Assembly (NCBI RefSeq): GCF_003991155.1 | Contig: NZ_CP031293.1 | DNA length: 64,000 nucleotides | Strand: one strand, 5' to 3' | Source of the DNA: Escherichia coli | GTDB lineage: Bacteria > Pseudomonadota > Gammaproteobacteria > Enterobacterales > Enterobacteriaceae | In this document: positions 1-62,623 of the stretch, in pieces | Position numbering within the stretch: position 1 is the stretch's first letter | Layout of the letters: every line of letters starts with the position of its first letter | Translations under genes and position numbers: made by a program | Notes under the pieces: model-generated | What the model was told of the DNA's origin: nothing | The model's input: only the letters and a program-made list of their open reading frames with translations | Database searches by the model: none

Positions 1-1335
1 TTCAACAGATGCATCGGTGATCACCTGCCAGCGCGTTTTATTATCCAGCGTGGCGTCAGGATGCTGGTGCTGCCACTCTTCCAGCCGTTTATGCGCATTC
101 TCGATCATGACGATAGCGGCATCGACCATCGCCCCGACGGCAATCGCAATGCCACCCAACGACATAATATTGGCGTTCAGTCCCTGAAAGTGCATGACAA
201 TAAAAGCAATACACAACCCCAGCGGCAACGAAATAATCGCCACCAGCGCCGAGCGCACATGCCAGAGAAACAGCGCACAGACTACCGCCACCACAATAAA
301 CTCTTCCAGCAACTTGCCACTGAGGTTGTCAATGGCGCGGTCAATGAGCTGGCTGCGATCGTATGTTGTAACTATCTCCACGCCTTCCGGCAGACTGCTT
401 TTCAGCGTTTCCAGTTTGTCCTTCACGGCAGCGATCACTTCACGGGCGTTTTTGCCGGAACGCAGGATCACCACCCCGCCCGCCACTTCGCCTTCGCCGT
501 TCAGTTCGGCAATGCCCCGGCGCATCTCCGGGCCAACCTGGACCTTCGCAACATCACGCAGATAAACGGGCACGCCATTTTCACTGGCTTTTAAAACGAT
601 GTGATTAAAGTCGTCGAGCGTTTGCAGATAGCCGCTGGCGCGCACCATATATTCCGCTTCCGCCAGTTCGATCGACGAACCGCCCGTTTCCTGGTTTGAA
701 GCATCCAGCGCGCTTTTTACTTCGGCGAGACTGATGCCATACTGCGCCAGGCGCTGAGGATCGATAACCACCTGATACTCTTTCACCACACCGCCCACCG
801 ACGCCACTTCCGCAACGTCAGGGATGGTTTTTAGCTCATATTTGAGAAACCAGTCCTGCAATGAGCGTAAATCGGCCAGATCGTGCTTACCGCTGCGATC
901 CACCAGTGCATATTCATAGATCCAGCCAACACCCGTGGCATCTGGCCCCAGCTCGGCGCTGACTCCCGCAGGCAGCTTACCCTGTACCTGGTTGAGGTAC
1001 TCCAGCACCCGCGAGCGCGCCCAGTACGGATCGGTGCCATCTTCGAAAATGACATACACATAAGAGTCGCCAAACTGCGAGAAACCGCGCACAGTCTTCG
1101 CGCCAGGCACCGACAACATGGTGGTGGTTAGCGGATAAGTCACCTGATTTTCAACGATTTGCGGTGCCTGACCGGGATAGCTGGTTTTAATAATCACCTG
1201 TACATCAGAGAGATCCGGCAGTGCATCCACTGGCGTGTTAATGATAGTCCAGGTGCCCCAGATACTCAGAAACAACGCGCCCATCAGCACCAGAAAACGG
1301 TTCGTCACCGAGCGACGAATAATCCATTCAATCAT
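1..1335 (-). CDS. cusA: CusA RND Cu(I)/Ag(I) efflux pump, N-terminal 445 codons (continues beyond window start)
   Basis: Reverse translation from the ATG at 1335 reads [24 protein letters not shown]... with no stop before position 1. It starts 11 nt after the cusB stop. cusCFBA synteny. Confidence 0.95.
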
Positions 1336-40960: not shown

Positions 40961-41480
40961 TCAGCAACCCCGGTATCAGTTCATCCAGCGCGGCTGCTTT
41001 GTTCATGGCTTTGATGATATCCCGTTTCAGGAAATCAACATGTCGGTTTTCCAGTTCCGGAAAACGCCGCTGCACCGACAGGGGGATCCCGTCGAGAATA
41101 CTGGCAATTTCACCTGCGATACGCGACAGCACGAAAGTACAGAATGCGGTTTCCACCACTTCAGCGGAGTCTCTGGCATTTTTCAGCTCCTGTGCGTCGG
41201 CCTGCGCACGCGTAAGTCGATGGCGTTCGTACTCAATAGTCCCTGGCTGGAGATCTGTCTCGCTGGCCTGCAGCAGTTCTTCAACCTCCCGGCGCAGCTT
41301 TTCGTTCTCAATTTCAGCATCCCTTTCGGCATACCATTTTATGACGGCGGCAGAGTCATAAAGCACCTCATTACCCTTGCCACCGCCTCGCAGAACGGGC
41401 ATTCCCTGTTCCTGCCAGTTCTGAATGGTACGGATACTCGCACCGAAAATGTCAGCCAGCTGCTTTTTGTTGACTTCCAT
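40935..41480 (-). CDS. Nu1: Terminase small subunit Nu1
   Basis: 181 aa, MEVNKKQLADIFGASIRTIQNWQEQGMPVL (winged HTH). Confidence 0.95.
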
Positions 41481-41657
41481 TGCTCATTCCACGGACAAAA
41501 ACAGAGAAAGGAAACGACAGAGGCCAAAAAGCTCGCTTTCAGCACCTGTCGTTTCCTTTCTTTTCAGGGGGTGTTTTAAATAAAAACATTAGGTTACGGC
41601 GAAGAAGAACGGAAACACCTTAAACCGGAAAATTTTCATAAATAGCGAAAACCCGCG

Positions 41658-41669
41658 AGGTCGCCGCCC
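41658..41669. other. cosN cohesive-end site (within the cos region, ~41500-41760)
   Basis: AGGTCGCCGCCC is the complement of the lambda 12-nt cohesive end GGGCGGCGACCT. Flanking sequence reads like lambda cosB and cosQ. Confidence 0.9.
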
Positions 41670-41868
41670 CGTAACCTGTCGGATCGCCGGAAAGGACCCG
41701 CAAAATGATAATAATTATCATCTACATGTCACAACGTGCATCTACGCCATCAAACCACGTCAAATAATCAATTATGACGCAGGTATCGTATTAATTGATC
41801 TGCATCAACTTAACGTAAAAACAACTTCAGACAATACAAATCAGCGACACTGAATACGGGGCAACCTC

Positions 41869-42063
41869 ATGTCAACGAAGAACAGAACCCGCAGAACAAC
41901 AACCCGCAACATCCGCTTTCCTAACCAAATGATTGAACAAATTAACATCGCTCTTGAGCAAAAAGGGTCCGGGAATTTCTCAGCCTGGGTCATTGAAGCC
42001 TGCCGTCGGAGACTAACGTCAGAAAAGAGAGCATATACATCAATCCAAAGTGATGATGGATGA
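41869..42063 (+). CDS. Ribbon-helix-helix-like small protein (lambda orf64 equivalent)
   Basis: 64 aa, MSTKNRTRRTTTRNIRFPNQMIEQINIALEQKGSGNFSAWVIEACRRRL. Same position next to cos as in lambda. Confidence 0.8.
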   Translation: MSTKNRTRRTTTRNIRFPNQMIEQINIALEQKGSGNFSAWVIEACRRRLTSEKRAYTSIQSDDG

Positions 42064-42425
42064 ACATCCCGGTTTCTTCCACCATCGCACCGGAAAAGCG
42101 ACTATGAGGGTAACCCTGCGTCTGTCAGCACAGTAAAACCCGGTGTGCATCGTTTTTGATTATTCCCGCACACTCACGCAGAAGGAATTCCCCGTCGGGC
42201 TACGGTCATGGTTAATGCGGGAATACGGCGACGATACAGCGCAGCTAAAAGGGTAATAGACGGATAGACCGGTTTATTTCATTCCACAGGATTCTGAGTG
42301 TCCCCAACTTCCTCCAATAGTCTGAGCGTACACCTATATAGTTTTAATTTTCATCAATCCATTTAACTATCGTTTAATTGTTGTCACATAGGATTCTGCC
42401 GTTTTTAACAATGCAGGATAATAAG

Positions 42426-42719
42426 ATGAAAAAAATGTTGTTTTCTGCCGCTCTGGCAATGCTTATTACAGGATGTGCTCAACAGACGTTTACTGTTGGA
42501 AACAAACCGACAGCAGTAACACCAAAGGAAACCATCACCCATCACTTCTTCGTTTCGGGAATTGGACAGGAGAAAACTGTTGATGCAGCCAAAATTTGTG
42601 GCGGCGCAGAAAATGTTGTTAAAACAGAAACCCAGCAAACATTCGTAAATGGATTGCTCGGTTTTATTACTTTAGGCATTTATACTCCGCTGGAAGCGCG
42701 TGTGTATTGCTCACAATAA
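42426..42719 (+). CDS. bor: Bor serum-resistance lipoprotein
   Basis: Trimmed to MKKMLFSAALAMLITGCAQQ (lipobox), giving 97 aa. Opposite strand to the lysis genes, as in lambda. Confidence 0.95.
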   Translation: MKKMLFSAALAMLITGCAQQTFTVGNKPTAVTPKETITHHFFVSGIGQEKTVDAAKICGGAENVVKTETQQTFVNGLLGFITLGIYTPLEARVYCSQ

Positions 42720-42750
42720 TTGCATGAGTTGCCCATCGATATGGGCAGCT

Positions 42751-43212
42751 CTATCTGCACTGCTCATTAATATACTTCTGGGTTCCTTCCAGTTGTTTTT
42801 GCATAGTGATCAGCCTCTCTCTGAGGGTGAAATAATCCCGTTCAGCGGTGTCTGCCAGTCGGGGGGAGGCTGCATTATCCACGCCGGAGGCGGTGGTGGC
42901 TTCACGCACTGACTGACAGACTGCTTTGATGTGCAACCGACGACGACCAGCGGCAACATCATCACGCAGAGCATCATTTTCAGCTTTCGCATCAGCTAAC
43001 TCCTTCGTGTATTTTGCATCGAGCGCAGCAACATCACGCTGACGCATCTGCATGTCAGTAATTGCCGCGTTCGCCAGCTTCAGTTCTCTGGCATTTTTGT
43101 CGCGCTGGGCTTTGTAGGTAATGGCGTTATCACGGTAATGATTAACCGCCCATGACAGACAGACGATGATGCAGATAACCAGAGCGGAGATAATCGCGGT
43201 TAATCTGTTCAT
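42751..43212 (-). CDS. Rz: Rz i-spanin
   Basis: 153 aa, [38 protein letters not shown].... Confidence 0.95.
42810..42992 (-). CDS. Rz1: Rz1 o-spanin lipoprotein embedded in the +1 frame of Rz
   Basis: 60 aa, [24 protein letters not shown]...[29 protein letters not shown]. Confidence 0.9.
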
Positions 43213-43685
43213 ACCTCAATCTCTCTGACCATTCCGCCCGCTTCTTTGAATTTTGCAATCAGGCTGTCAGCCTTATGCTCGAACTGACCATAACCAGCGC
43301 CCGGAAGTGAAGCCCAGATATTGCTGCAACGGTCGATAGCCTGACGAATATCACCGCGATCAATCATCGGTAAAGCGCCACGCTCTTTAATCTGTTGCAG
43401 TGCCACAGCGTCCTGGCTTTTCGGAGAGAAGTCTTTCAGGCCAAGCTGCTTGCGGTAAGCAACCCACCAGCGTGAAAGAAGTTGATAACGGCCTGCAGCT
43501 GTTGATTTGAGTTTCGGGTTTAGCGTGACAAGTTTGCGAGGGTGATCGGAGTAATCAGTGAAGAGTTCTCCACCGACAATAACGTCATAACCGTGGTTAC
43601 GTGTCGGTTGTCGCCCGTTATCCGTTCCCTCTGACCATGCCACCATATCAAGGAAAGCTTTACGCTGGGAATTTAGTACCTGCAT
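43209..43685 (-). CDS. R: Endolysin R (lambda-type lytic transglycosylase)
   Basis: 158 aa, ...[41 protein letters not shown].... Confidence 0.95.
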
Positions 43686-43688
43686 AAA

Positions 43689-44015
43689 TTACTCCTTAGA
43701 GCCACCAAACTTGTTACCGATTACTCTCATTGCAGCCCCACGAATAGCATCAACACCGATCAGCCCCACCCCACCACCAATGGCAACAGATAGTGATTTA
43801 GGCCATCCGACATACTCAAGAGCGGATGCAAAAGTCAGCGTCAGAGCGCCACAGAGTAGAATTTCGAGTGTTTTTCGCTTCCAGCCGCCACCACCGCCAA
43901 AATAGGCAATACGTAAACCAGCCATAACAATCGACATAATCACTGCGCCCAGCGGTGTGTCTCCACGCCACCAGCTCTGGACCAACTCCAGCCATGTATT
44001 TGGGTTATGAGGCAT
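43689..44015 (-). CDS. Holin, non-lambda type (about three TM segments, HP1/holin-3-like)
   Basis: 108 aa directly upstream of R. Hydrophobic segments GAVIMSIVMAGLRIAYF, ILLCGALTLTFASAL and AIGGGVGLIGV. No similarity to lambda S. Confidence 0.75.
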   Translation of the reverse strand: MPHNPNTWLELVQSWWRGDTPLGAVIMSIVMAGLRIAYFGGGGGWKRKTLEILLCGALTLTFASALEYVGWPKSLSVAIGGGVGLIGVDAIRGAAMRVIGNKFGGSKE

Positions 44016-44154
44016 TTGTAGTTATCTCTCACCTCGCTGATACAGCAGGTGCAAATTGAGGAAACATCATGTACCGCAAATCAGAAGCGGAAACGTCAAA
44101 GAAGCCGAGTCAATGGATAACTGCGGGATAGGCTAGGACCAAGGAATCCCCAGA

Positions 44155-44189
44155 CCCAGAAACGACAAAACCCGCTCGATGGCGGGTTT
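44155..44189 (-). terminator. tR-prime-like intrinsic terminator upstream of the holin
   Basis: Minus strand reads AAACCCGC-CATCGA-GCGGGTTT followed by TGTCGTTTC. On the plus strand there is no T-run. Confidence 0.5.
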
Positions 44190-44306
44190 AAGCTGTGTGG
44201 CGAAGTGAGCACACTTAACAGATTACGATATTTTTTGCGTACGCGTTAGTGTTTTGATAGAATTTTCAGCCACATAAAAATTCATTCTTATAATTCGGGA
44301 TATATA

Positions 44307-45481
44307 ATGGATATAACTTGTTTAGAATGTGGCAATGTTCTTGACGACCCAACTGTAGCTTGCGATAAATGCGGTGCCACGCCTCATGTTGTAGTGCTGG
44401 GCAAACAATCGTACTTTCCTATTGGTGCTGTAACAGCAAATCTTGAAAAAAATGATTCAAGAGCATTTGATTATCGATTAGGTGAAGTTTGGGATCTAAA
44501 AAATGAAGTCACATCTGAATTCATAACCAGAATTGAGAAAAAATTTAGCCGAAAAAACAAATTTCATAACTTCCTAGACTCAGATCACAACCCTTCATCC
44601 ATTCCTACGATCCTAAAAAAATACATTAATAAGAATAATGAATTCATTGATTTATCTAGAGCTATAATAGAGAAGCTTAAACATAATGCTAATAACGAAT
44701 CGAGAGTTGCCCAACTTCAGGGGGGGAGCGTTGTTTTCATCCACTATAAGTCTACCGAACCAGAGGATTTGGGGAAACTTCTAATCGTAATGGTTGATAA
44801 ACAAAGCGCCTATGACTTTGATTCGGATAAGTTGACCCCAACAAGATTAAATCCAATTAATACCGATGCCTTACGGCAGGCTGCGATGTTCGATTTAACT
44901 TTATTCGAAGCCAGTTATCCAGAAAACAAGGGTGACTCATATGTACATTTCTTGCAAGGTAAATCTAAAAGCGATTTTTTCAAAGACTCATTAGGTTGCC
45001 GACATGATTCGGACAATAAAAGAAGCATTCAGCAATTATTCAGTGCTATAGATATTTTTGCTAGTAAAAACTCACTCGGTCGTGTACTGCGTGATACTAT
45101 TGACAATGAAGTTAAATCCTTACTGGAAAAAAATCAAAAGATAAACACGGAAATAAGTCCGTTAAGATAGAGGATATTTCAAAAATAATTGACTCATGCC
45201 TGACTGATTCACACAAATGTAAGGGAACGTTTGTCGATTTTGTTAATCTTAATGGTTTCCAGATTGACCCTCAATTTGAACCAACTCCTAAAGCAGCTGA
45301 AAGCGCGCTTACAATTGAAGTGGCAGATAACGACAATAATTTTAAGTTGAAAATAATGCGTGGAGCTATTGGAGACGAAAAGTCAAATAAGCCTGTAATT
45401 CTCACTGACAACAAATGCGAAATTGTGATAAAATTGAGTCAGGCAAATTATGATGAACTCAAAAGATATAGAGACAGCTAA
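44307..45481 (+). pseudogene. Zn-ribbon plus YejK/NdpA-like (NA37) nucleoid-associated-type protein, split by a frameshift at an A7 tract
   Basis: The first frame (44307-45170) has CLECG...CDKCG, GGSVVFIHYK, LLIVMVDK and HFLQGKSKSDFFKDSLGC. The -1 frame is open from 45116 to 45478 and carries the family-like C-terminus (...CEIVIKLSQANYDEL). Confidence 0.6.
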
Positions 45482-45483
45482 TA

Positions 45484-46698
45484 ATGACAATTGCTGATGA
45501 CTTATCAAGATTAGCGCAGATTATTAACGGAGCCTCAAGCAGAGTTGAGGGCTACTACACTGTCATAAGTCTTGAAGAAAGCATTGTTATTGTAAATAGT
45601 TCTGAAATAATTAGACTGTTACAATCTATAGGTTATAAAAAGGCAACAACCTGCATCGAAAATAATGAAATTTGGCTAGATCGCCAAGCTTCATCTTGGG
45701 ATGATGCTATAATTTATGAGAATGTTGAGTCTTTTTGGTCTAGAGTAAACACCCAAAACGCTCTTCCGAAAAATTATATCATCGGAACGCCGTTAATACT
45801 CCCTACTTCTAAGAATGAAAGCATCGAAAAAATCCATATTTTCTTTATGTGGAAAGATATCCTTTCATTAATTGCTGATCATCATAACAGTGACTGCTCT
45901 GTCTTATTTTTCACCAATGAAGACAAAAGTTATACAGTCGAACTCACGCATTTTTTACAATATAGCGAGATTAATCGCTTATCGAACTCGTCTCTTAAAT
46001 ATGAAATTATAAAGGAGCTTCTCGACACAATAAAAATCAATGATTTACACAAAAGCGAGCGCAAGCTCGTTATACGCTCAGCCATAAACGAAGTATTTAA
46101 AGCAAATGGTACGTTCAATTTCTTTGACTTGCTTAACTCTACTGAACTCGTCAGGAAAAAATATGATGAACTATATGAGATTTACACAAAGAGGTTTTCT
46201 GTAAATAAAATTCTTAACGAACTCGATGAGAAAAATCTTGAGTTCACGAGTAAAATTAACGAATTCATATCATCTAATCAGACAAAAGCATTGACTATTC
46301 CCGGTGCATTAATAGCAGCTGGTGGCTTAGTGAAGGCTAATGAAACAACCGAAGCAATATTGATTATCGCAGGACTTTGGATGATAAAAAAAGTCAATTA
46401 CATTTCTATTGAGATATTCAATGAAACATTCGACAACTTACGTTCTCGAGTGGAGTCCGCTTTCGATAAGTATTTAAAGTTTGAAGAAAATAAAGAAATC
46501 AAAGATAATGCAGATAGTATTAAGAGTAGCATTACAGGTTTGATTGATAAAGCTAAAAAAAGGATGAGAACTGTTAAATATCTCGCATCAGCCATGTTTT
46601 ATGGAGGCCTTATTTACGTTGGATATAAACAGTTCCCAGTCTTTTTTGAAAAATCGGCAGTAAATCTATTTTATTTTTTATGCCATACTATAAGCTAA
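45484..46698 (+). CDS. 404-aa protein of unknown function with C-terminal transmembrane helices
   Basis: The ATG is 2 nt after the upstream stop. Hydrophobic ALTIPGALIAAGGLV, AILIIAGLWMI and YLASAMFYGGLIYVGY. Very AT-rich. No recognised domain. Confidence 0.6.
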   Translation: MTIADDLSRLAQIINGASSRVEGYYTVISLEESIVIVNSSEIIRLLQSIGYKKATTCIENNEIWLDRQASSWDDAIIYENVESFWSRVNTQNALPKNYIIGTPLILPTSKNESIEKIHIFFMWKDILSLIADHHNSDCSVLFFTNEDKSYTVELTHFLQYSEINRLSNSSLKYEIIKELLDTIKINDLHKSERKLVIRSAINEVFKANGTFNFFDLLNSTELVRKKYDELYEIYTKRFSVNKILNELDEKNLEFTSKINEFISSNQTKALTIPGALIAAGGLVKANETTEAILIIAGLWMIKKVNYISIEIFNETFDNLRSRVESAFDKYLKFEENKEIKDNADSIKSSITGLIDKAKKRMRTVKYLASAMFYGGLIYVGYKQFPVFFEKSAVNLFYFLCHTIS

Positions 46699-47034
46699 CA
46701 TTGCTAAACAGCCGTCAACAAACCCCATTGCAGTTTGCAGTTCCTTCCTAATTGTGCCATCAGAGCATTTTCTCTTCTTCGCAATAGTGCGTAATGAGAT
46801 ACCGATAACAAAGTGGGCGATGATGAGCTCATATTCCTCTGGTTTATACCTTCTCAACCGAGCCACACAACTGTCTATCATGATGCCTTCGTCATCATCA
46901 CACTGAATCCGTGACTTTTTGCCATGAGGTAAAAGTCCCTTGAAACCAGCCGCTATCGGCTGCCAGTCCACTCCGCTATTGTCTGAAGCAGCCCAAGCTC
47001 CCCAACGATCCATTACTTCATACATATCACGCAT
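46678..47034 (-). CDS. quuD: Late antiterminator Q (DLP12 QuuD / phage 82-21 type)
   Basis: Trimmed to MRDMYEVMDRWGAWAASDNSGVDWQPIAAGFKGLL, giving 118 aa. Gene order rusA-ylcG-Q, as in DLP12. Confidence 0.8.
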   Translation of the reverse strand: MRDMYEVMDRWGAWAASDNSGVDWQPIAAGFKGLLPHGKKSRIQCDDDEGIMIDSCVARLRRYKPEEYELIIAHFVIGISLRTIAKKRKCSDGTIRKELQTAMGFVDGCLAMLAYSMA

Positions 47035-47118
47035 CAACTTTCTCCACAAAATCAGGCCAGAACGCCAATTACAAGCAAAAATCAACAAAACAGTATTAGT
47101 TGATTGTTATCTCTGACT

Positions 47119-47259
47119 TCATACTCCTGCTCCTGTCAGGGTTTTGGCGTAATTCTTCAGTATTCGGTAATCGGTCAAAACAGAACCGGGGAAACGATAT
47201 AAGCGCAGACGCCCCCAGCGGTGGCGAAGAAATTCTGCCATATTAAACTCAAACATCAT
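47119..47259 (-). CDS. ylcG: YlcG-like small protein
   Basis: 46 aa, read by hand: [46 protein letters not shown]. Its ATG overlaps the rusA stop (ATGA). Confidence 0.7.
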
Positions 47260-47618
47260 TCATTCCCCATTTCGGTGATGGTCAGTTCCAGCCTCCCACC
47301 TTTGGTAACAGGCATCTTCACAACGCGGTAATCAACGACCTGAGCATCATCCAGCCAGAAACCTGCTTTAGTGAGTGCGTCAAAAGCGGCTTTTTGCAGA
47401 TTATCCAGGTCACGGCGACGGCGATCCGGCATGTGGCACTCAATGCGGATTTTCACAGGCATAGCTAGGCCGATATCCAGCATTGCGTTTTTAATGATTC
47501 GGGCGACGTTATCGCGGTATGCCTGCCCCTCTGCGCTGACGTGCGTGCGCCCGCGATTATGGCGGTAATAGCGATTATTGCTCGGAGGCCAGGGTAATGT
47601 GATACTGTAGGTATTCAC
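47256..47618 (-). CDS. rusA: RusA Holliday-junction resolvase
   Basis: 120 aa, [36 protein letters not shown]...[13 protein letters not shown]. Confidence 0.95.
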
Positions 47619-47905
47619 GCCTTAATAACCCCCTCTTTCAGCCAGATAACCTGTGTTCTCGCCATACCTTCCAGCGCGCATTCTTTTGCATATGCAGCAT
47701 CGACAAAATGTGTGCGGCGGTCGATTTCGTCGTGGCAGGCAGAACATGCAATGGTGGCAATCAGGTCTGGCGGTTTGATACCGGTACCGCACAATCCAGC
47801 CAGCCGGATATGTGCCAGTACAGACGTTTCAGAATTGCCATTACATACGCCAGGGATTCTTACCTGGCATTCCCGACCACGCGCTGCTTTTCTCAAATCA
47901 GCCAT
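47615..47905 (-). CDS. ybcO: YbcO (DUF1364 nin-region putative nuclease)
   Basis: Trimmed to [34 protein letters not shown], giving 96 aa. Confidence 0.85.
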
Positions 47906-48068
47906 GATTCCTCCTTGCTGCCAGTCGCAACCATTTTTTATCAACCAGGCTAGCGGTATATCCGAGCAGTGTTGGTATTTCGGATGGCTTCGGCTCAGGC
48001 TTACGCTTACGACGATTTGATACTCTGTAGATGTGTCCGTTCATGACACGAATAAGCGGTGTAGCCAT
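47898..48068 (-). CDS. ninE: NinE
   Basis: 56 aa, read by hand: [56 protein letters not shown]. Overlaps the ybcN stop and the ybcO start. Confidence 0.85.
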   Translation of the reverse strand: MATPLIRVMNGHIYRVSNRRKRKPEPKPSEIPTLLGYTASLVDKKWLRLAARRNHG

Positions 48069-48523
48069 TACGCCTCCTGCTTGTCACGGAGCAGCTGGAA
48101 CTCGCAGCTCTGCGGAATAGTCAGGTGGCAGCCAATATTCACCGCCCAGGCTTCAACCTTACACAGGAAGACATACATCTCTCCGGTATCAAGATCGGAG
48201 GTATGGCGTAACGACTGGATAGTGGTGATATCACCGGTTACGACATCAACCAGGTCTTTGGTTTCATAACCGAGATATGTGTGTTTGAGAGCATCTTTTA
48301 CCCAAGCTGGAGTGGCGAACGTTTTACCCCTGTTGATGAGGTATTCACTGATTTCGCTGTACCACATGTGGCTGAGTGCATTCTGGGAAAGACTGCGTTT
48401 CTCACGCCACGGTTTAAGCACCATGCGAAAGCATTTGCCCTCCTCCAGATAAGGCTGGATCTGCCGACCGATAGCGGTGAAGTTACCGCGATGTAATTTG
48501 ATGCCATCTTGTGGGAGATTCAC
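48068..48523 (-). CDS. ybcN: YbcN (NinB-family DNA-binding recombination protein)
   Basis: 151 aa with a GTG start, [50 protein letters not shown].... Confidence 0.9.
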
Positions 48524-48621
48524 GCTTCACCTCCGCAGAGGTCAAACGCTGGATGCAAAAAATCGCAGGTGCATCTCTGCATCTGTGAAGGGAGAAGAGA
48601 GTTTGGATTGTATGTGCGCAT
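48520..48621 (-). CDS. ylcH: YlcH-like 33-aa peptide
   Basis: Read by hand: [33 protein letters not shown]. Its stop overlaps the ybcN GTG (GTGA). Confidence 0.6.
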
Positions 48622-48719
48622 AAACGTCCCCGTTTAGCGCAGAAGTCACCGGAGTTGTTCAGGCTCCGATGACATGATTATGGCAAAATGATTATGTAAA
48701 ATCAAAAGCCAAAAAACAA

Positions 48720-49649
48720 TTATGGTTTATTTTCTAGCTCTGATTTTTTGAAAGCTTCTATCAGACGATTAGCATCTTCTGTACCACCAGGAAGCACGTT
48801 TGATTTTTTAAGAATATACGGTGGGAACTTTGTGGTTAAATATTCATGCTTAAACCATCTACGAAACTCTGACAATGCAGAATCAGGATAGGCATTAATG
48901 ATCTGAGGATTGGAACTTGCCTGAAGAAAATCTTCAGGGTAATAATGCTCACAGTCTACTCTTTCTCCAAATTCTGTTGCTAACCCCTTTGCTTTCCAGT
49001 GACGCGCCCAGCAAGAACCAACACTGCCATCAGGTACGGTATGCTGATTAATCGCTAATCCAGCATTGATGAGATCTACCATCATACCTGCAATTTCATT
49101 AAATATAATGAAATACCCATCAGGTATGGTTCCCTTATCTTTTAATAAAGATACTCTGTCATGGTAATGCCTCCACGGGTCCTCCGGTTGATATTTTAGC
49201 GCCTCGTATATAAATGTCTTGAGGCCTTTTTTAGCAAGCTCTCTGTAAGATCTAATTGCAGTCTCACTTTCTGCTTGTTTTGCTTCAAAGGCATAGTATT
49301 CAAGTATAGCCATGCATACAACATCTGGATAAGCATGGTACTCAACACCATTTCGAATTATTGGTATATAAAGTTTTTCATCTGTAAAACCTTCATTAAG
49401 AAGATATGTACCAATAAAAGTCATTCTTCCTTTTTTGAAAATACCGTTCTCAACAGATTGAGCCCACTCATCGGTAATTTCCTTGATTCGCAAACGCTGA
49501 ACACCACAAACATTTGCCAACCCATTCTGAGTAAGGTACGGAATTCCGTTATCGAGTACCCCCATTTCTATACCGTTAATGACAGCCTCTTGCTTAACAT
49601 CTAAGTCTAAAGGTATGGATCTGAGGGAGGTAGTTCTCTGTTGTGCCAT
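48720..49649 (-). CDS. 309-aa protein of unknown function (weak by-eye resemblance of the N-terminal half to P63C-type phage proteins)
   Basis: The ATG at 49649 has an AGGA SD. The track start at 49664 is TTG. AT-rich. Contains motifs HAYPDVVCMAILEYYAFEAK and KTFIYEALKYQ. Confidence 0.5.
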   Translation of the reverse strand: MAQQRTTSLRSIPLDLDVKQEAVINGIEMGVLDNGIPYLTQNGLANVCGVQRLRIKEITDEWAQSVENGIFKKGRMTFIGTYLLNEGFTDEKLYIPIIRNGVEYHAYPDVVCMAILEYYAFEAKQAESETAIRSYRELAKKGLKTFIYEALKYQPEDPWRHYHDRVSLLKDKGTIPDGYFIIFNEIAGMMVDLINAGLAINQHTVPDGSVGSCWARHWKAKGLATEFGERVDCEHYYPEDFLQASSNPQIINAYPDSALSEFRRWFKHEYLTTKFPPYILKKSNVLPGGTEDANRLIEAFKKSELENKP

Positions 49650-49853
49650 TTTTGATCCTATCAATTTGAATTCATTGAAAAAATTAGGTGTTCCCTATGC
49701 ATTAGAACACTCATCATAGTAACCCCACTCGTTTGTGAAAAAAACTAATTTCACAATCAGTTAACTCTCAAAATAACTGATATTCATACTCTCGCTATCC
49801 CATATATAGACATCCTTGTTTTAATACAACACTCATGGCTGGCGGCTATACTC

Positions 49854-62544: not shown

Positions 62545-62591
62545 AATGGCGCGCCCTGCAGGATTCGAACCTGCGGCCCACGACTTAGAAG
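62545..62591. repeat. att repeat (int-proximal copy) overlapping the 3' part of argU
   Basis: Identical 47-mer to 13821-13867. Confidence 0.9.
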
Positions 62592-62623
62592 GTCGTTGCT
62601 CTATCCAACTGAGCTAAGGGCGC
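62547..62623 (-). tRNA. argU: tRNA-Arg (anticodon UCU)
   Basis: The reverse complement reads GCGCCCTTAGCTCAGTTGGATAGAGCAACGACCTTCTAAGTCGTGGGCCGCAGGTTCGAATCCTGCAGGGCGCGCCA, 77 nt, with CT-TCT-AA in the anticodon loop. Confidence 0.97.

What the first reader, a model, noticed from the sequence alone, without database searches (positions are those of the whole stretch)
45116..45170. Frameshift inside the YejK-like gene at an A7 tract: decay, phase variation or programmed -1 slippage
**Seen in sequence**
- The first frame stops at 45168-45170.
- The -1 frame is open for 121 codons (45116-45478).
- That frame encodes what looks like the family C-terminus (...ALTIEVADNDNNFKLKIMRGAIGDEKSNKPVILTDNKCEIVIKLSQANYDELKRYRDS).
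- It ends 2 nt before the next gene.
- The 55-nt overlap window contains GGAAAAAAAT (A7 at 45127-45133).
- In the zero frame this reads A AAA AAT, a slippery X XXY YYZ pattern.

**Inference**
- One extra A (A8) would fuse both parts into a single ~391-aa protein.
- The possibilities are a recent 1-nt deletion, a sequencing error, a homopolymer phase switch, or programmed -1 frameshifting that yields two isoforms.
Basis: seen in the sequence. Interest (0 to 1): 0.5.

Follow-up and report, generated by a model that had tools for sequence, protein, structure and literature searches.

The report
One-base deletion breaks a known anti-phage gene
A prophage-borne anti-phage gene (DS-1A, a YejK-like DNA-binding protein) is split here because a run of eight A's has lost one A; this is an ordinary slippage mutation at a run that often gains or loses a base in E. 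coli, not programmed frameshifting.

Summary
ORF 44307-45170 (287 aa) stops early, the -1 frame stays open to 45481, and adding one A to the A7 run (45127-45133) restores a 391-aa protein.

That restored protein is WP_000355468.1. Together with the intact downstream gene (45484-46698, WP_000150292.1) it forms DS-1, a two-gene anti-phage system validated experimentally in the DefensePredictor study. DS-1 has the architecture of type II PANGU: a YejK-like sensor plus a membrane effector.

- **Relatives:** of 106 complete E. coli records with the locus, 3 carry A7, 4 carry A9 (3 isolates), and about 99 carry A8 with a single ORF. All distant homologues are single ~390-aa proteins.
- **Tract conservation:** the run is interrupted in Klebsiella and Raoultella orthologues.
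- **Frameshift signals:** no stimulatory RNA structure follows the run.

Programmed frameshifting is therefore not supported. The truncation removes the part that, in YejK, makes the stable dimer and is needed for DNA binding, so the sensor is probably dead.

The one mildly interesting point is that the tract is a recurrent hot spot. A7 occurs on 4 operon haplotypes and A9 on 6, about 9% of all occurrences. Phase variation is not excluded, but simple decay is more likely.

The parts
44307..45170 (+). Truncated DS-1A (YejK/NA37-like nucleoid-associated anti-phage protein). It has 275 native residues plus 12 out-of-frame residues (NQKINTEISPLR), 287 aa in all, and is the RefSeq protein WP_001588485.1.
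   Evidence: NF053868 scores 349 bits and covers profile 3-277 of 369. Pfam NA37.
45127..45133 (+). A7 homopolymer, which is A8 in the intact allele. This is the site of the 1-nt deletion and a recurrent +/-1 indel hot spot.
   Evidence: A7 lies on 4 operon haplotypes and A9 on 6.
45116..45481 (+). The -1-frame remainder of DS-1A: the C-terminal ~115 residues of the 391-aa protein plus the TAA stop. Its first internal start codon is the GTG at 45320, so the whole C-terminal part cannot be made as a separate protein.
   Evidence: NF053868 profile positions 269-369 of 369. Conserved residues F309, F324, G356, K362 and P363 lie in this stretch.
45484..46698 (+). DS-1B, the intact 404-aa partner and effector gene (WP_000150292.1). 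Its N-terminal 270 residues are mildly acidic and its C-terminal region is hydrophobic. Its last 21 nt overlap the convergent Q gene.
   Evidence: NF053869 scores 375 bits against a cut-off of 315. phrog_5023. Hydropathy and charge.
44720..44726 (+). G7 run inside DS-1A, a second and less frequent indel site in relatives.
   Evidence: G7 is G5 in strain UID2309220009 (L014). Fragment P0007, seen on 8 contigs, begins out of frame just upstream of the G run and rejoins the DS-1A frame there.

Best explanation
The gene is DS-1A, the YejK-like nucleoid-associated sensor of the two-gene DS-1 anti-phage system. DS-1 has the type II PANGU architecture and is carried as an AT-rich cargo cassette between the Q antiterminator and the holin of a lambdoid prophage.

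In this genome, replication slippage has shortened an in-frame A8 run (GAA AAA AAA, Glu-Lys-Lys) to A7. Translation then leaves the native frame after residue 275 and stops 12 codons later.

**Shown:**
- the deletion itself;
- that A8 is the common, functional state;
- that the same tract has changed by +1 or -1 many times independently.

**Inferred:**
- The 287-aa product is non-functional. It lacks the equivalent of YejK residues ~237-335. These include the C-domain arm that forms the stable dimer, without which YejK does not bind DNA.
- The system no longer defends, because in a type II PANGU system both genes were required.
- Translation of DS-1B may also fall, because its start codon sits 2 nt after the native DS-1A stop and ribosomes now terminate 313 nt upstream.
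- Any full-length protein made from A7 by spontaneous ribosomal or transcriptional slippage would be a trace by-product, not a programmed isoform.
For: **Identity of the system.** NF053868 DS1_1_antiphage scores 451 bits (cut-off 330) and NF053869 DS1_2_antiphage scores 375 bits (cut-off 315). Table S6 of PMC13092281 lists WP_000150292.1 + WP_000355468.1 as 'defensive TRUE, DS-1'. Newer RefSeq annotations call the pair 'nucleoid-associated anti-phage protein' and 'anti-phage protein'.

**A8 is the norm.**
- About 99 of 106 complete E. coli records have A8 and one ORF. Three have A7, and 4 records (3 isolates) have A9.
- PEC403 matches the window over 8.5 kb with no mismatch and a single 1-base gap, at the missing A.
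- 110 homologues down to 32% identity are single ~390-aa proteins with a conserved C-terminus.

**The tract is not conserved.** It reads GAACGAAAG in Klebsiella, GATAAAAAA in Raoultella and GATAAGAAA in Klebsiella sp..

**No frameshift stimulator.** The downstream fold has z = -0.97 and there is no Rfam hit.

**The allele is real and heritable.** A7 occurs in near-identical prophages of other assemblies: L024 has 2 mismatches in 8864 nt, and L016 is GCA_000457065.1, an independent assembly with a much older accession.

**Recurrent slippage.** A7 is found on 4 haplotypes and A9 on 6, and 3 haplotypes carry both. Index blocks: 10,333 for the 391-aa protein, 744 for A7 and 246 for A9.

**Loss of function.** The frameshift maps to about YejK position 237. 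YejK lacking residues 291-335 is mostly monomeric and shows essentially no DNA binding (PMC11229321). Both genes of a type II PANGU system are needed for defence (preprint 10.64898/2026.04.06.716658).
Against: - No reads were available, so an assembly error in this particular record cannot be formally excluded.
- The activity of the 287-aa protein has not been tested. It keeps the N-domain and still passes the NF053868 cut-off (349 bits against 330).
- None of the 27 A7 or A9 loci sampled has a second lesion in either gene. That fits very recent decay, but it fits reversible switching equally well.
Confidence: 0.72

Rival explanations
1. Phase variation (contingency locus). The A8 run would act as a reversible ON/OFF switch for a potentially costly abortive-infection system. 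A7 and A9 would be OFF states that revert to A8 under phage pressure.
For: - Length changes occur in both directions at the same tract on many independent haplotypes: A7 on 4, A9 on 6, and 3 haplotypes with both.
- OFF alleles make up about 9% of occurrences.
- Tract indels dominate over the other loss-of-function alleles seen.
- No sampled OFF locus carries a secondary lesion, and DS-1B is always intact.
Against: - The tract is absent from Klebsiella and Raoultella orthologues that sit in the same prophage position, so it is not a conserved design feature.
- From general knowledge, A8 is short for a high-rate switch.
- The gene also decays by other routes: G7 to G5, a T deletion, and IS1 and ISKpn26 insertions. 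That is as expected for an accessory gene under relaxed or negative selection.
- Recurrence at the longest homopolymer across many thousands of occurrences is what plain mutation bias predicts.
Confidence: 0.15
2. Sequencing or assembly error. The strain really has A8, and the homopolymer was miscalled in this record.
For: - Homopolymer miscalls are common in long-read assemblies (general knowledge).
- The window differs from PEC403 by this single base over 8.5 kb.
Against: - The identical A7 allele, in the same prophage type, appears in independent assemblies made at other times (L024, L016, L023).
- The allele is in 744 index blocks and has its own long-standing RefSeq protein, WP_001588485.1.
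Confidence: 0.1
3. Programmed recoding. Either -1 ribosomal frameshifting on A_AAA_AAT, or transcriptional slippage on the A run, would deliberately produce both a 287-aa and a 391-aa isoform.
For: - The heptamer is in register in the zero frame, and the shift window 45116-45170 is open in both frames.
- A_AAA_AAC, a similar heptamer, is used by IS1 without a known stimulator (PMC4066793).
Against: - The majority allele, which is the experimentally active one, is an uninterrupted ORF.
- No homologue shows the split arrangement as a conserved state.
- The tract is not conserved, and there is no stimulatory structure.
- Without stimulators, E. coli heptamers shift only 2-10 times over a 0.055% background, and A_AA.A_AA.C is rated 'low efficiency' (PMC4066793).
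- A9 alleles recur too and would need the opposite shift.
Confidence: 0.03

Closest known systems
DS-1 anti-phage system (DefensePredictor; DeWeirdt et al., Science 2026, PMC13092281; NCBIfam NF053868 and NF053869)
   Same: - The downstream gene is the very protein cloned in that study (WP_000150292.1).
- The upstream gene is WP_000355468.1 minus one nucleotide.
- The gene order and the 2-nt spacing are the same.
   Different: Here DS-1A is frameshifted to 287 aa. The validated construct encoded the intact 391-aa protein.
Type II PANGU (Pag2A nucleoid-associated sensor + Pag2B membrane effector; bioRxiv 10.64898/2026.04.06.716658)
   Same: - A two-gene operon with a YejK/NA37-like protein first.
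- The second protein has a net-acidic N-terminal part and a hydrophobic C-terminal part.
- One tested system came from an E. coli UPEC strain.
   Different: - Sequence identity with the published PANGU-Ecu system could not be checked, because its sequences are not held.
- The mechanism (release of the sensor from degraded host DNA, then binding to the effector's DNA-mimic domain) was shown mainly for type I.
E. coli YejK (NdpA) nucleoid-associated DNA clamp (PDB 9be2; PMC11229321)
   Same: Same fold family: Pfam NA37, and a profile match to 9be2_A with E = 7e-16.
   Different: - Only about 23% identity.
- DS-1A has an extra N-terminal zinc-ribbon-like CxxC...CxxC segment.
- It is prophage cargo paired with an effector, not a housekeeping gene.
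IS1 insA-insB -1 frameshift at A_AAA_AAC
   Same: An A-rich heptamer in the zero frame, with the downstream part of the protein in the -1 frame.
   Different: - In IS1 the split is the conserved, functional arrangement.
- Here the split is a minority mutant of an uninterrupted gene, and +1 (A9) mutants occur as well.

Membership tests
DS-1 anti-phage system | First protein matches the NF053868 (DS1_1_antiphage) equivalog above its cut-off. | tested here: met
   The repaired 391-aa protein scores 451 bits against a cut-off of 330. The 287-aa product as encoded scores 349 bits but covers only profile positions 3-277 of 369.
DS-1 anti-phage system | An adjacent second protein matches NF053869 (DS1_2_antiphage). 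| tested here: met
   It scores 375 bits against a cut-off of 315. It is identical to WP_000150292.1, the protein cloned as DS-1.
DS-1 anti-phage system | Both genes are intact. | tested here: not met
   DS-1A is frameshifted at the A7 run and lacks native residues 276-391.
DS-1 anti-phage system | The system protects against phage. | not testable with these tools
   Protection was shown in the literature for the intact pair (PMC13092281 Table S6). It has not been shown for the A7 allele.
Type II PANGU | A YejK-like nucleoid-associated protein is encoded first in a two-gene operon. | tested here: met
   Pfam NA37 scores 84.5 bits. The native stop and the next ATG are 2 nt apart.
Type II PANGU | The effector has an acidic N-terminal DNA-mimic domain and a C-terminal transmembrane domain. 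| tested here: inconclusive
   A crude analysis only. Residues 1-270 have a net charge of -8. One 19-residue window (291-309) passes a Kyte-Doolittle threshold of 1.4, and further hydrophobic stretches lie near 270-283 and 366-390. No structure model was made.
Programmed -1 ribosomal frameshift site | A slippery X_XXY_YYZ heptamer lies in the zero frame. | tested here: met
   A_AAA_AAT at 45128-45134, with codons GAA AAA AAT.
Programmed -1 ribosomal frameshift site | A stimulatory element is present (a downstream structure or an upstream SD-like sequence). | tested here: not met
   The downstream 67 nt fold to -7.6 kcal/mol, z = -0.97, and 34 of 200 shuffles fold as well. No AGGAGG-like sequence is visible upstream. 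There is no Rfam hit.
Programmed -1 ribosomal frameshift site | The two-frame arrangement and the slippery site are conserved among homologues. | tested here: not met
   About 99 of 106 E. coli records have an in-frame A8. All distant homologues are single ORFs. The tract is broken in Klebsiella and Raoultella.
Homopolymer phase-variable (contingency) gene | Tract length is polymorphic among close relatives, in both directions and recurrently. | tested here: met
   A7, A8 and A9 are all seen. A7 lies on 4 haplotypes and A9 on 6, and 3 haplotypes carry both.
Homopolymer phase-variable (contingency) gene | The tract is maintained across orthologues. | tested here: not met
   It is present in E. 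coli and in a 95%-identical Salmonella allele, but absent from orthologues at 75-88% identity.
Homopolymer phase-variable (contingency) gene | Switching is reversible and fast, with a phenotypic consequence. | not testable with these tools
   This needs fluctuation assays, or the mapping of tract states on strain phylogenies.

The most novel reading that the evidence does not exclude
The A8 run in DS-1A would be a genuine contingency switch. Lambdoid prophages of E. coli and Salmonella would toggle a nucleoid-sensing abortive-infection system OFF (A7 or A9) and back ON (A8) by slippage. This would balance the cost or self-toxicity of the system, for example during the prophage's own induction, when host DNA may be damaged, against protection from other phages.
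Probability: 0.12. Interest if true: 0.5.

Novelty: already known. Interest (0 to 1): 0.2.

Why it matters
Mostly for annotation and phenotype prediction. This strain, and roughly one in eleven occurrences of the locus, should be scored as carrying a broken DS-1 system. It should not be scored as a two-isoform gene, or as a plain 'nucleoid-associated protein'.

The recurrent A7/A9 alleles also provide natural loss-of-function controls for studying DS-1 and type II PANGU. They raise a testable but unproven possibility that a prophage defence system is switched by homopolymer slippage.

Tried and rejected
- **PADLOC-DB v2.0.0** has no model for either protein. The system was described after that release.
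- **Scan of genome contigs** with the single protein confirmed no locus. Orthologue DNA was obtained instead from a plasmid hit and from exact-protein look-ups.
- **The 'phages' collection** holds only distant (~20% identity) Pseudomonas phage NdpA-like genes, which say nothing about the tract.
- **PANGU preprint:** its supplementary sequences are not held, so identity with PANGU-Ecu could not be tested.
- **Frameshift stimulators:** the downstream RNA fold and Rfam gave no sign of one.
- **A split, two-polypeptide protein** was considered and rejected. The -1 frame has no start codon before the GTG at 45320, which leaves only a 53-aa ORF.
- **An LWY24-private error** was considered and judged unlikely, because the same allele sits in near-identical prophages of other assemblies.

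Full report
**1. Observation**

- An ORF starts at 44307 and stops at TAG 45168-45170, giving 287 aa.
- The -1 frame is open from 45116 to TAA 45479-45481.
- The next gene starts at 45484.
- An A7 run lies at 45127-45133, read in the zero frame as GAA AAA AAT.
- Adding one A gives a single 391-aa ORF.

The two frames match adjoining parts of one family profile. NF053868 positions 3-277 fall in the zero frame and positions 269-369 in the -1 frame. This is therefore one gene split by a frameshift, not two genes.

**2. What the gene is**

The repaired protein belongs to Pfam NA37 (YejK/NdpA), scoring 84.5 bits. It also scores 451 bits on NCBIfam NF053868 'DS1_1_antiphage, nucleoid-associated anti-phage protein'. 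The downstream 404-aa protein scores 375 bits on NF053869 'DS1_2_antiphage'.

Window 41200-49750 is identical to E. coli LWY24 (NZ_CP054556.1). There the two genes are annotated as WP_001588485.1 (287 aa) and WP_000150292.1. In strain PEC403 the same 8.5 kb differs only by the extra A. Its genes are annotated as 'nucleoid-associated anti-phage protein' (WP_000355468.1, 391 aa) and 'anti-phage protein'.

Table S6 of the DefensePredictor paper (PMC13092281) lists exactly this pair, WP_000150292.1 + WP_000355468.1, as construct D390, 'defensive TRUE', named DS-1. The main text of that paper counts a YejK nucleoid-associated domain among the newly validated defence domains.

A 2026 preprint (10.64898/2026.04.06.716658) describes PANGU systems. 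In these, a YejK-like protein leaves the nucleoid when phage degrades host DNA and then activates a partner effector. Type II PANGU pairs the sensor with a membrane protein that has an acidic N-terminal DNA-mimic domain, and both genes were required for defence.

DS-1B here has a net-acidic N-terminal 270 residues and a hydrophobic C-terminal part. That fits the type II architecture. Identity with the published E. coli system could not be checked.

**3. Genomic setting**

The cassette has 33-36% GC against 46-53% in the flanks. It lies on the strand opposite the late genes, between the Q antiterminator (46678-47088, - strand) and the holin (43689-44015, - strand) of a lambdoid prophage. Orthologous cassettes sit in the same slot in Klebsiella, Salmonella and Raoultella prophages.

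**4. Is the frameshift programmed?**

The evidence says no.
- **State in E. coli.** Among 106 complete E. coli records (105 genomes) with the locus, 3 have A7: LWY24 and two Swiss STEC isolates. Four records from 3 isolates have A9: PK12, 21AR0303 and CB6886. About 99 records have A8 and one ORF.
- **Distant homologues.** All 110 homologues, down to 32% identity, are single proteins of about 390 aa. Invariant residues (F309, F324, G356, K362, P363) lie downstream of the shift site.
- **Tract conservation.** The run is kept in a 95%-identical Salmonella allele. It reads GAACGAAAG in Klebsiella, GATAAAAAA in Raoultella and GATAAGAAA in Klebsiella sp..
- **RNA signals.** The 67 nt after the run fold no better than shuffles (z = -0.97). 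No Rfam family matches.
- **Expected efficiency.** Measured -1 frameshifting on heptamers in E. coli without stimulators is only 2-10 times a 0.055% background, and A_AA.A_AA.C is rated low-efficiency (PMC4066793).
- **Opposite-direction mutants.** A9 alleles, which would need the opposite shift, recur as well.

Trace restoration of the frame by spontaneous ribosomal or transcriptional slippage on A7 is plausible. It would be an accident, not a design.

**5. Real allele or sequencing error?**

The exact 287-aa protein is seen on 373 contigs and is indexed in 744 blocks of the assembly collection. It sits in the same prophage type in independent assemblies.
- L024 has 2 mismatches and no gap over 8864 nt.
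- L016 (GCA_000457065.1) has 1 mismatch over 6 kb.

An error private to this record is therefore unlikely. It cannot be excluded without the reads.

**6. A recurrent hot spot**

I compared operon haplotypes in 35 fetched E. coli loci.
- A7 lies on 4 different SNP haplotypes.
- A9 lies on 6 haplotypes.
- Three haplotypes carry both A7 and A9.

This means at least 10 independent one-base changes at this one tract.

Index blocks number 10,333 for the intact 391-aa protein, 744 for A7 and 246 for A9. About 9% of occurrences are therefore off by one.

Other inactivating lesions exist but are rarer:
- G7 to G5 at 44720-44726 (L014);
- a T deletion at gene position 749 (MDR_56);
- IS1 and ISKpn26 insertions.

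None of the 27 A7 or A9 loci examined has a second lesion, and DS-1B is intact in all of them. This pattern fits simple mutation bias at the longest homopolymer of a dispensable, possibly costly gene. It also fits reversible phase variation.

**7. Consequence (inferred)**

The shift site aligns with about residue 237 of E. coli YejK.

In YejK, the C-domain arm (residues 291-335) forms the stable dimer interface. Deleting it gives a mostly monomeric protein with essentially no DNA binding. R276, R280 and K284 also contribute to DNA binding (PMC11229321).

The 287-aa product lacks all of this, so it probably can neither clamp DNA nor act as the sensor. The -1 frame has no start codon before the GTG at 45320, so the missing part cannot be supplied as a second polypeptide.

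The native DS-1A stop lies 2 nt before the DS-1B start. Premature termination 313 nt upstream may therefore also lower DS-1B translation.

**8. Verdict**

This is an ordinary loss-of-function slippage mutation (A8 to A7) in a known, experimentally validated prophage anti-phage gene. Programmed frameshifting is not supported.

The only point of modest interest is that the tract is a recurrent, bidirectional indel hot spot. That leaves a low-probability phase-variation reading open.

Noticed in passing
window 44720-44726 (+): A G7 run inside DS-1A is a second indel site in relatives. It is G5 in strain UID2309220009 (L014). Protein fragment P0007, seen on 8 contigs, begins out of frame just upstream of the G run and rejoins the DS-1A frame there.
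   Followed up: partly
window 43689-47088, both strands: The AT-rich DS-1 cassette (33-36% GC) sits on the opposite strand between the Q antiterminator and the holin. This is the slot where lambdoid phages carry cargo. A terminator-like hairpin on the - strand lies at 44189-44168, just upstream of the holin. Where the late promoter lies relative to the cassette was not worked out.
   Followed up: partly
window 46678-46698: The 3' end of DS-1B overlaps the 3' end of the convergent Q gene by 21 nt. Orthologous cassettes in Klebsiella, Salmonella and Raoultella show a similar 21-30 nt overlap (L007-L012).
   Followed up: no
window ~48720-49649 (-): In a newer RefSeq record of the identical sequence (PEC403), the gene here is annotated as 'BstA C-terminal domain-containing protein'. 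It may be a second prophage-borne abortive-infection defence, about 2 kb from DS-1.
   Followed up: no
window 42426-42719 (+): The iss gene (increased serum survival lipoprotein, Bor family) lies next to the lysis genes of the same prophage. It is a virulence-associated cargo gene.
   Followed up: no
relatives H2 (NZ_OZ547033.1) and H45 (NZ_CP182203.1): In these two genomes the DS-1 cassette is interrupted by insertion sequences. In H2 an IS1 splits the nucleoid-associated gene. H45 carries an ISKpn26-family element in the cassette.
   Followed up: no
L003, L004, L019, L022, L025 (Stx-phage-like context): One operon haplotype (327A, 1400C, 1721T, 1738T, 2012T; DS-1B allele WP_096849363.1) was seen only with A7 in the loci fetched. 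It sits next to tRNA genes, or an AraC-type HTH gene and a nanS-p-like esterase gene. The frameshift may be fixed in an STEC prophage lineage.
   Followed up: no
window 62550-62623 (-): This tRNA gene is the only Rfam match in the window. It may be a prophage or island integration site.
   Followed up: no
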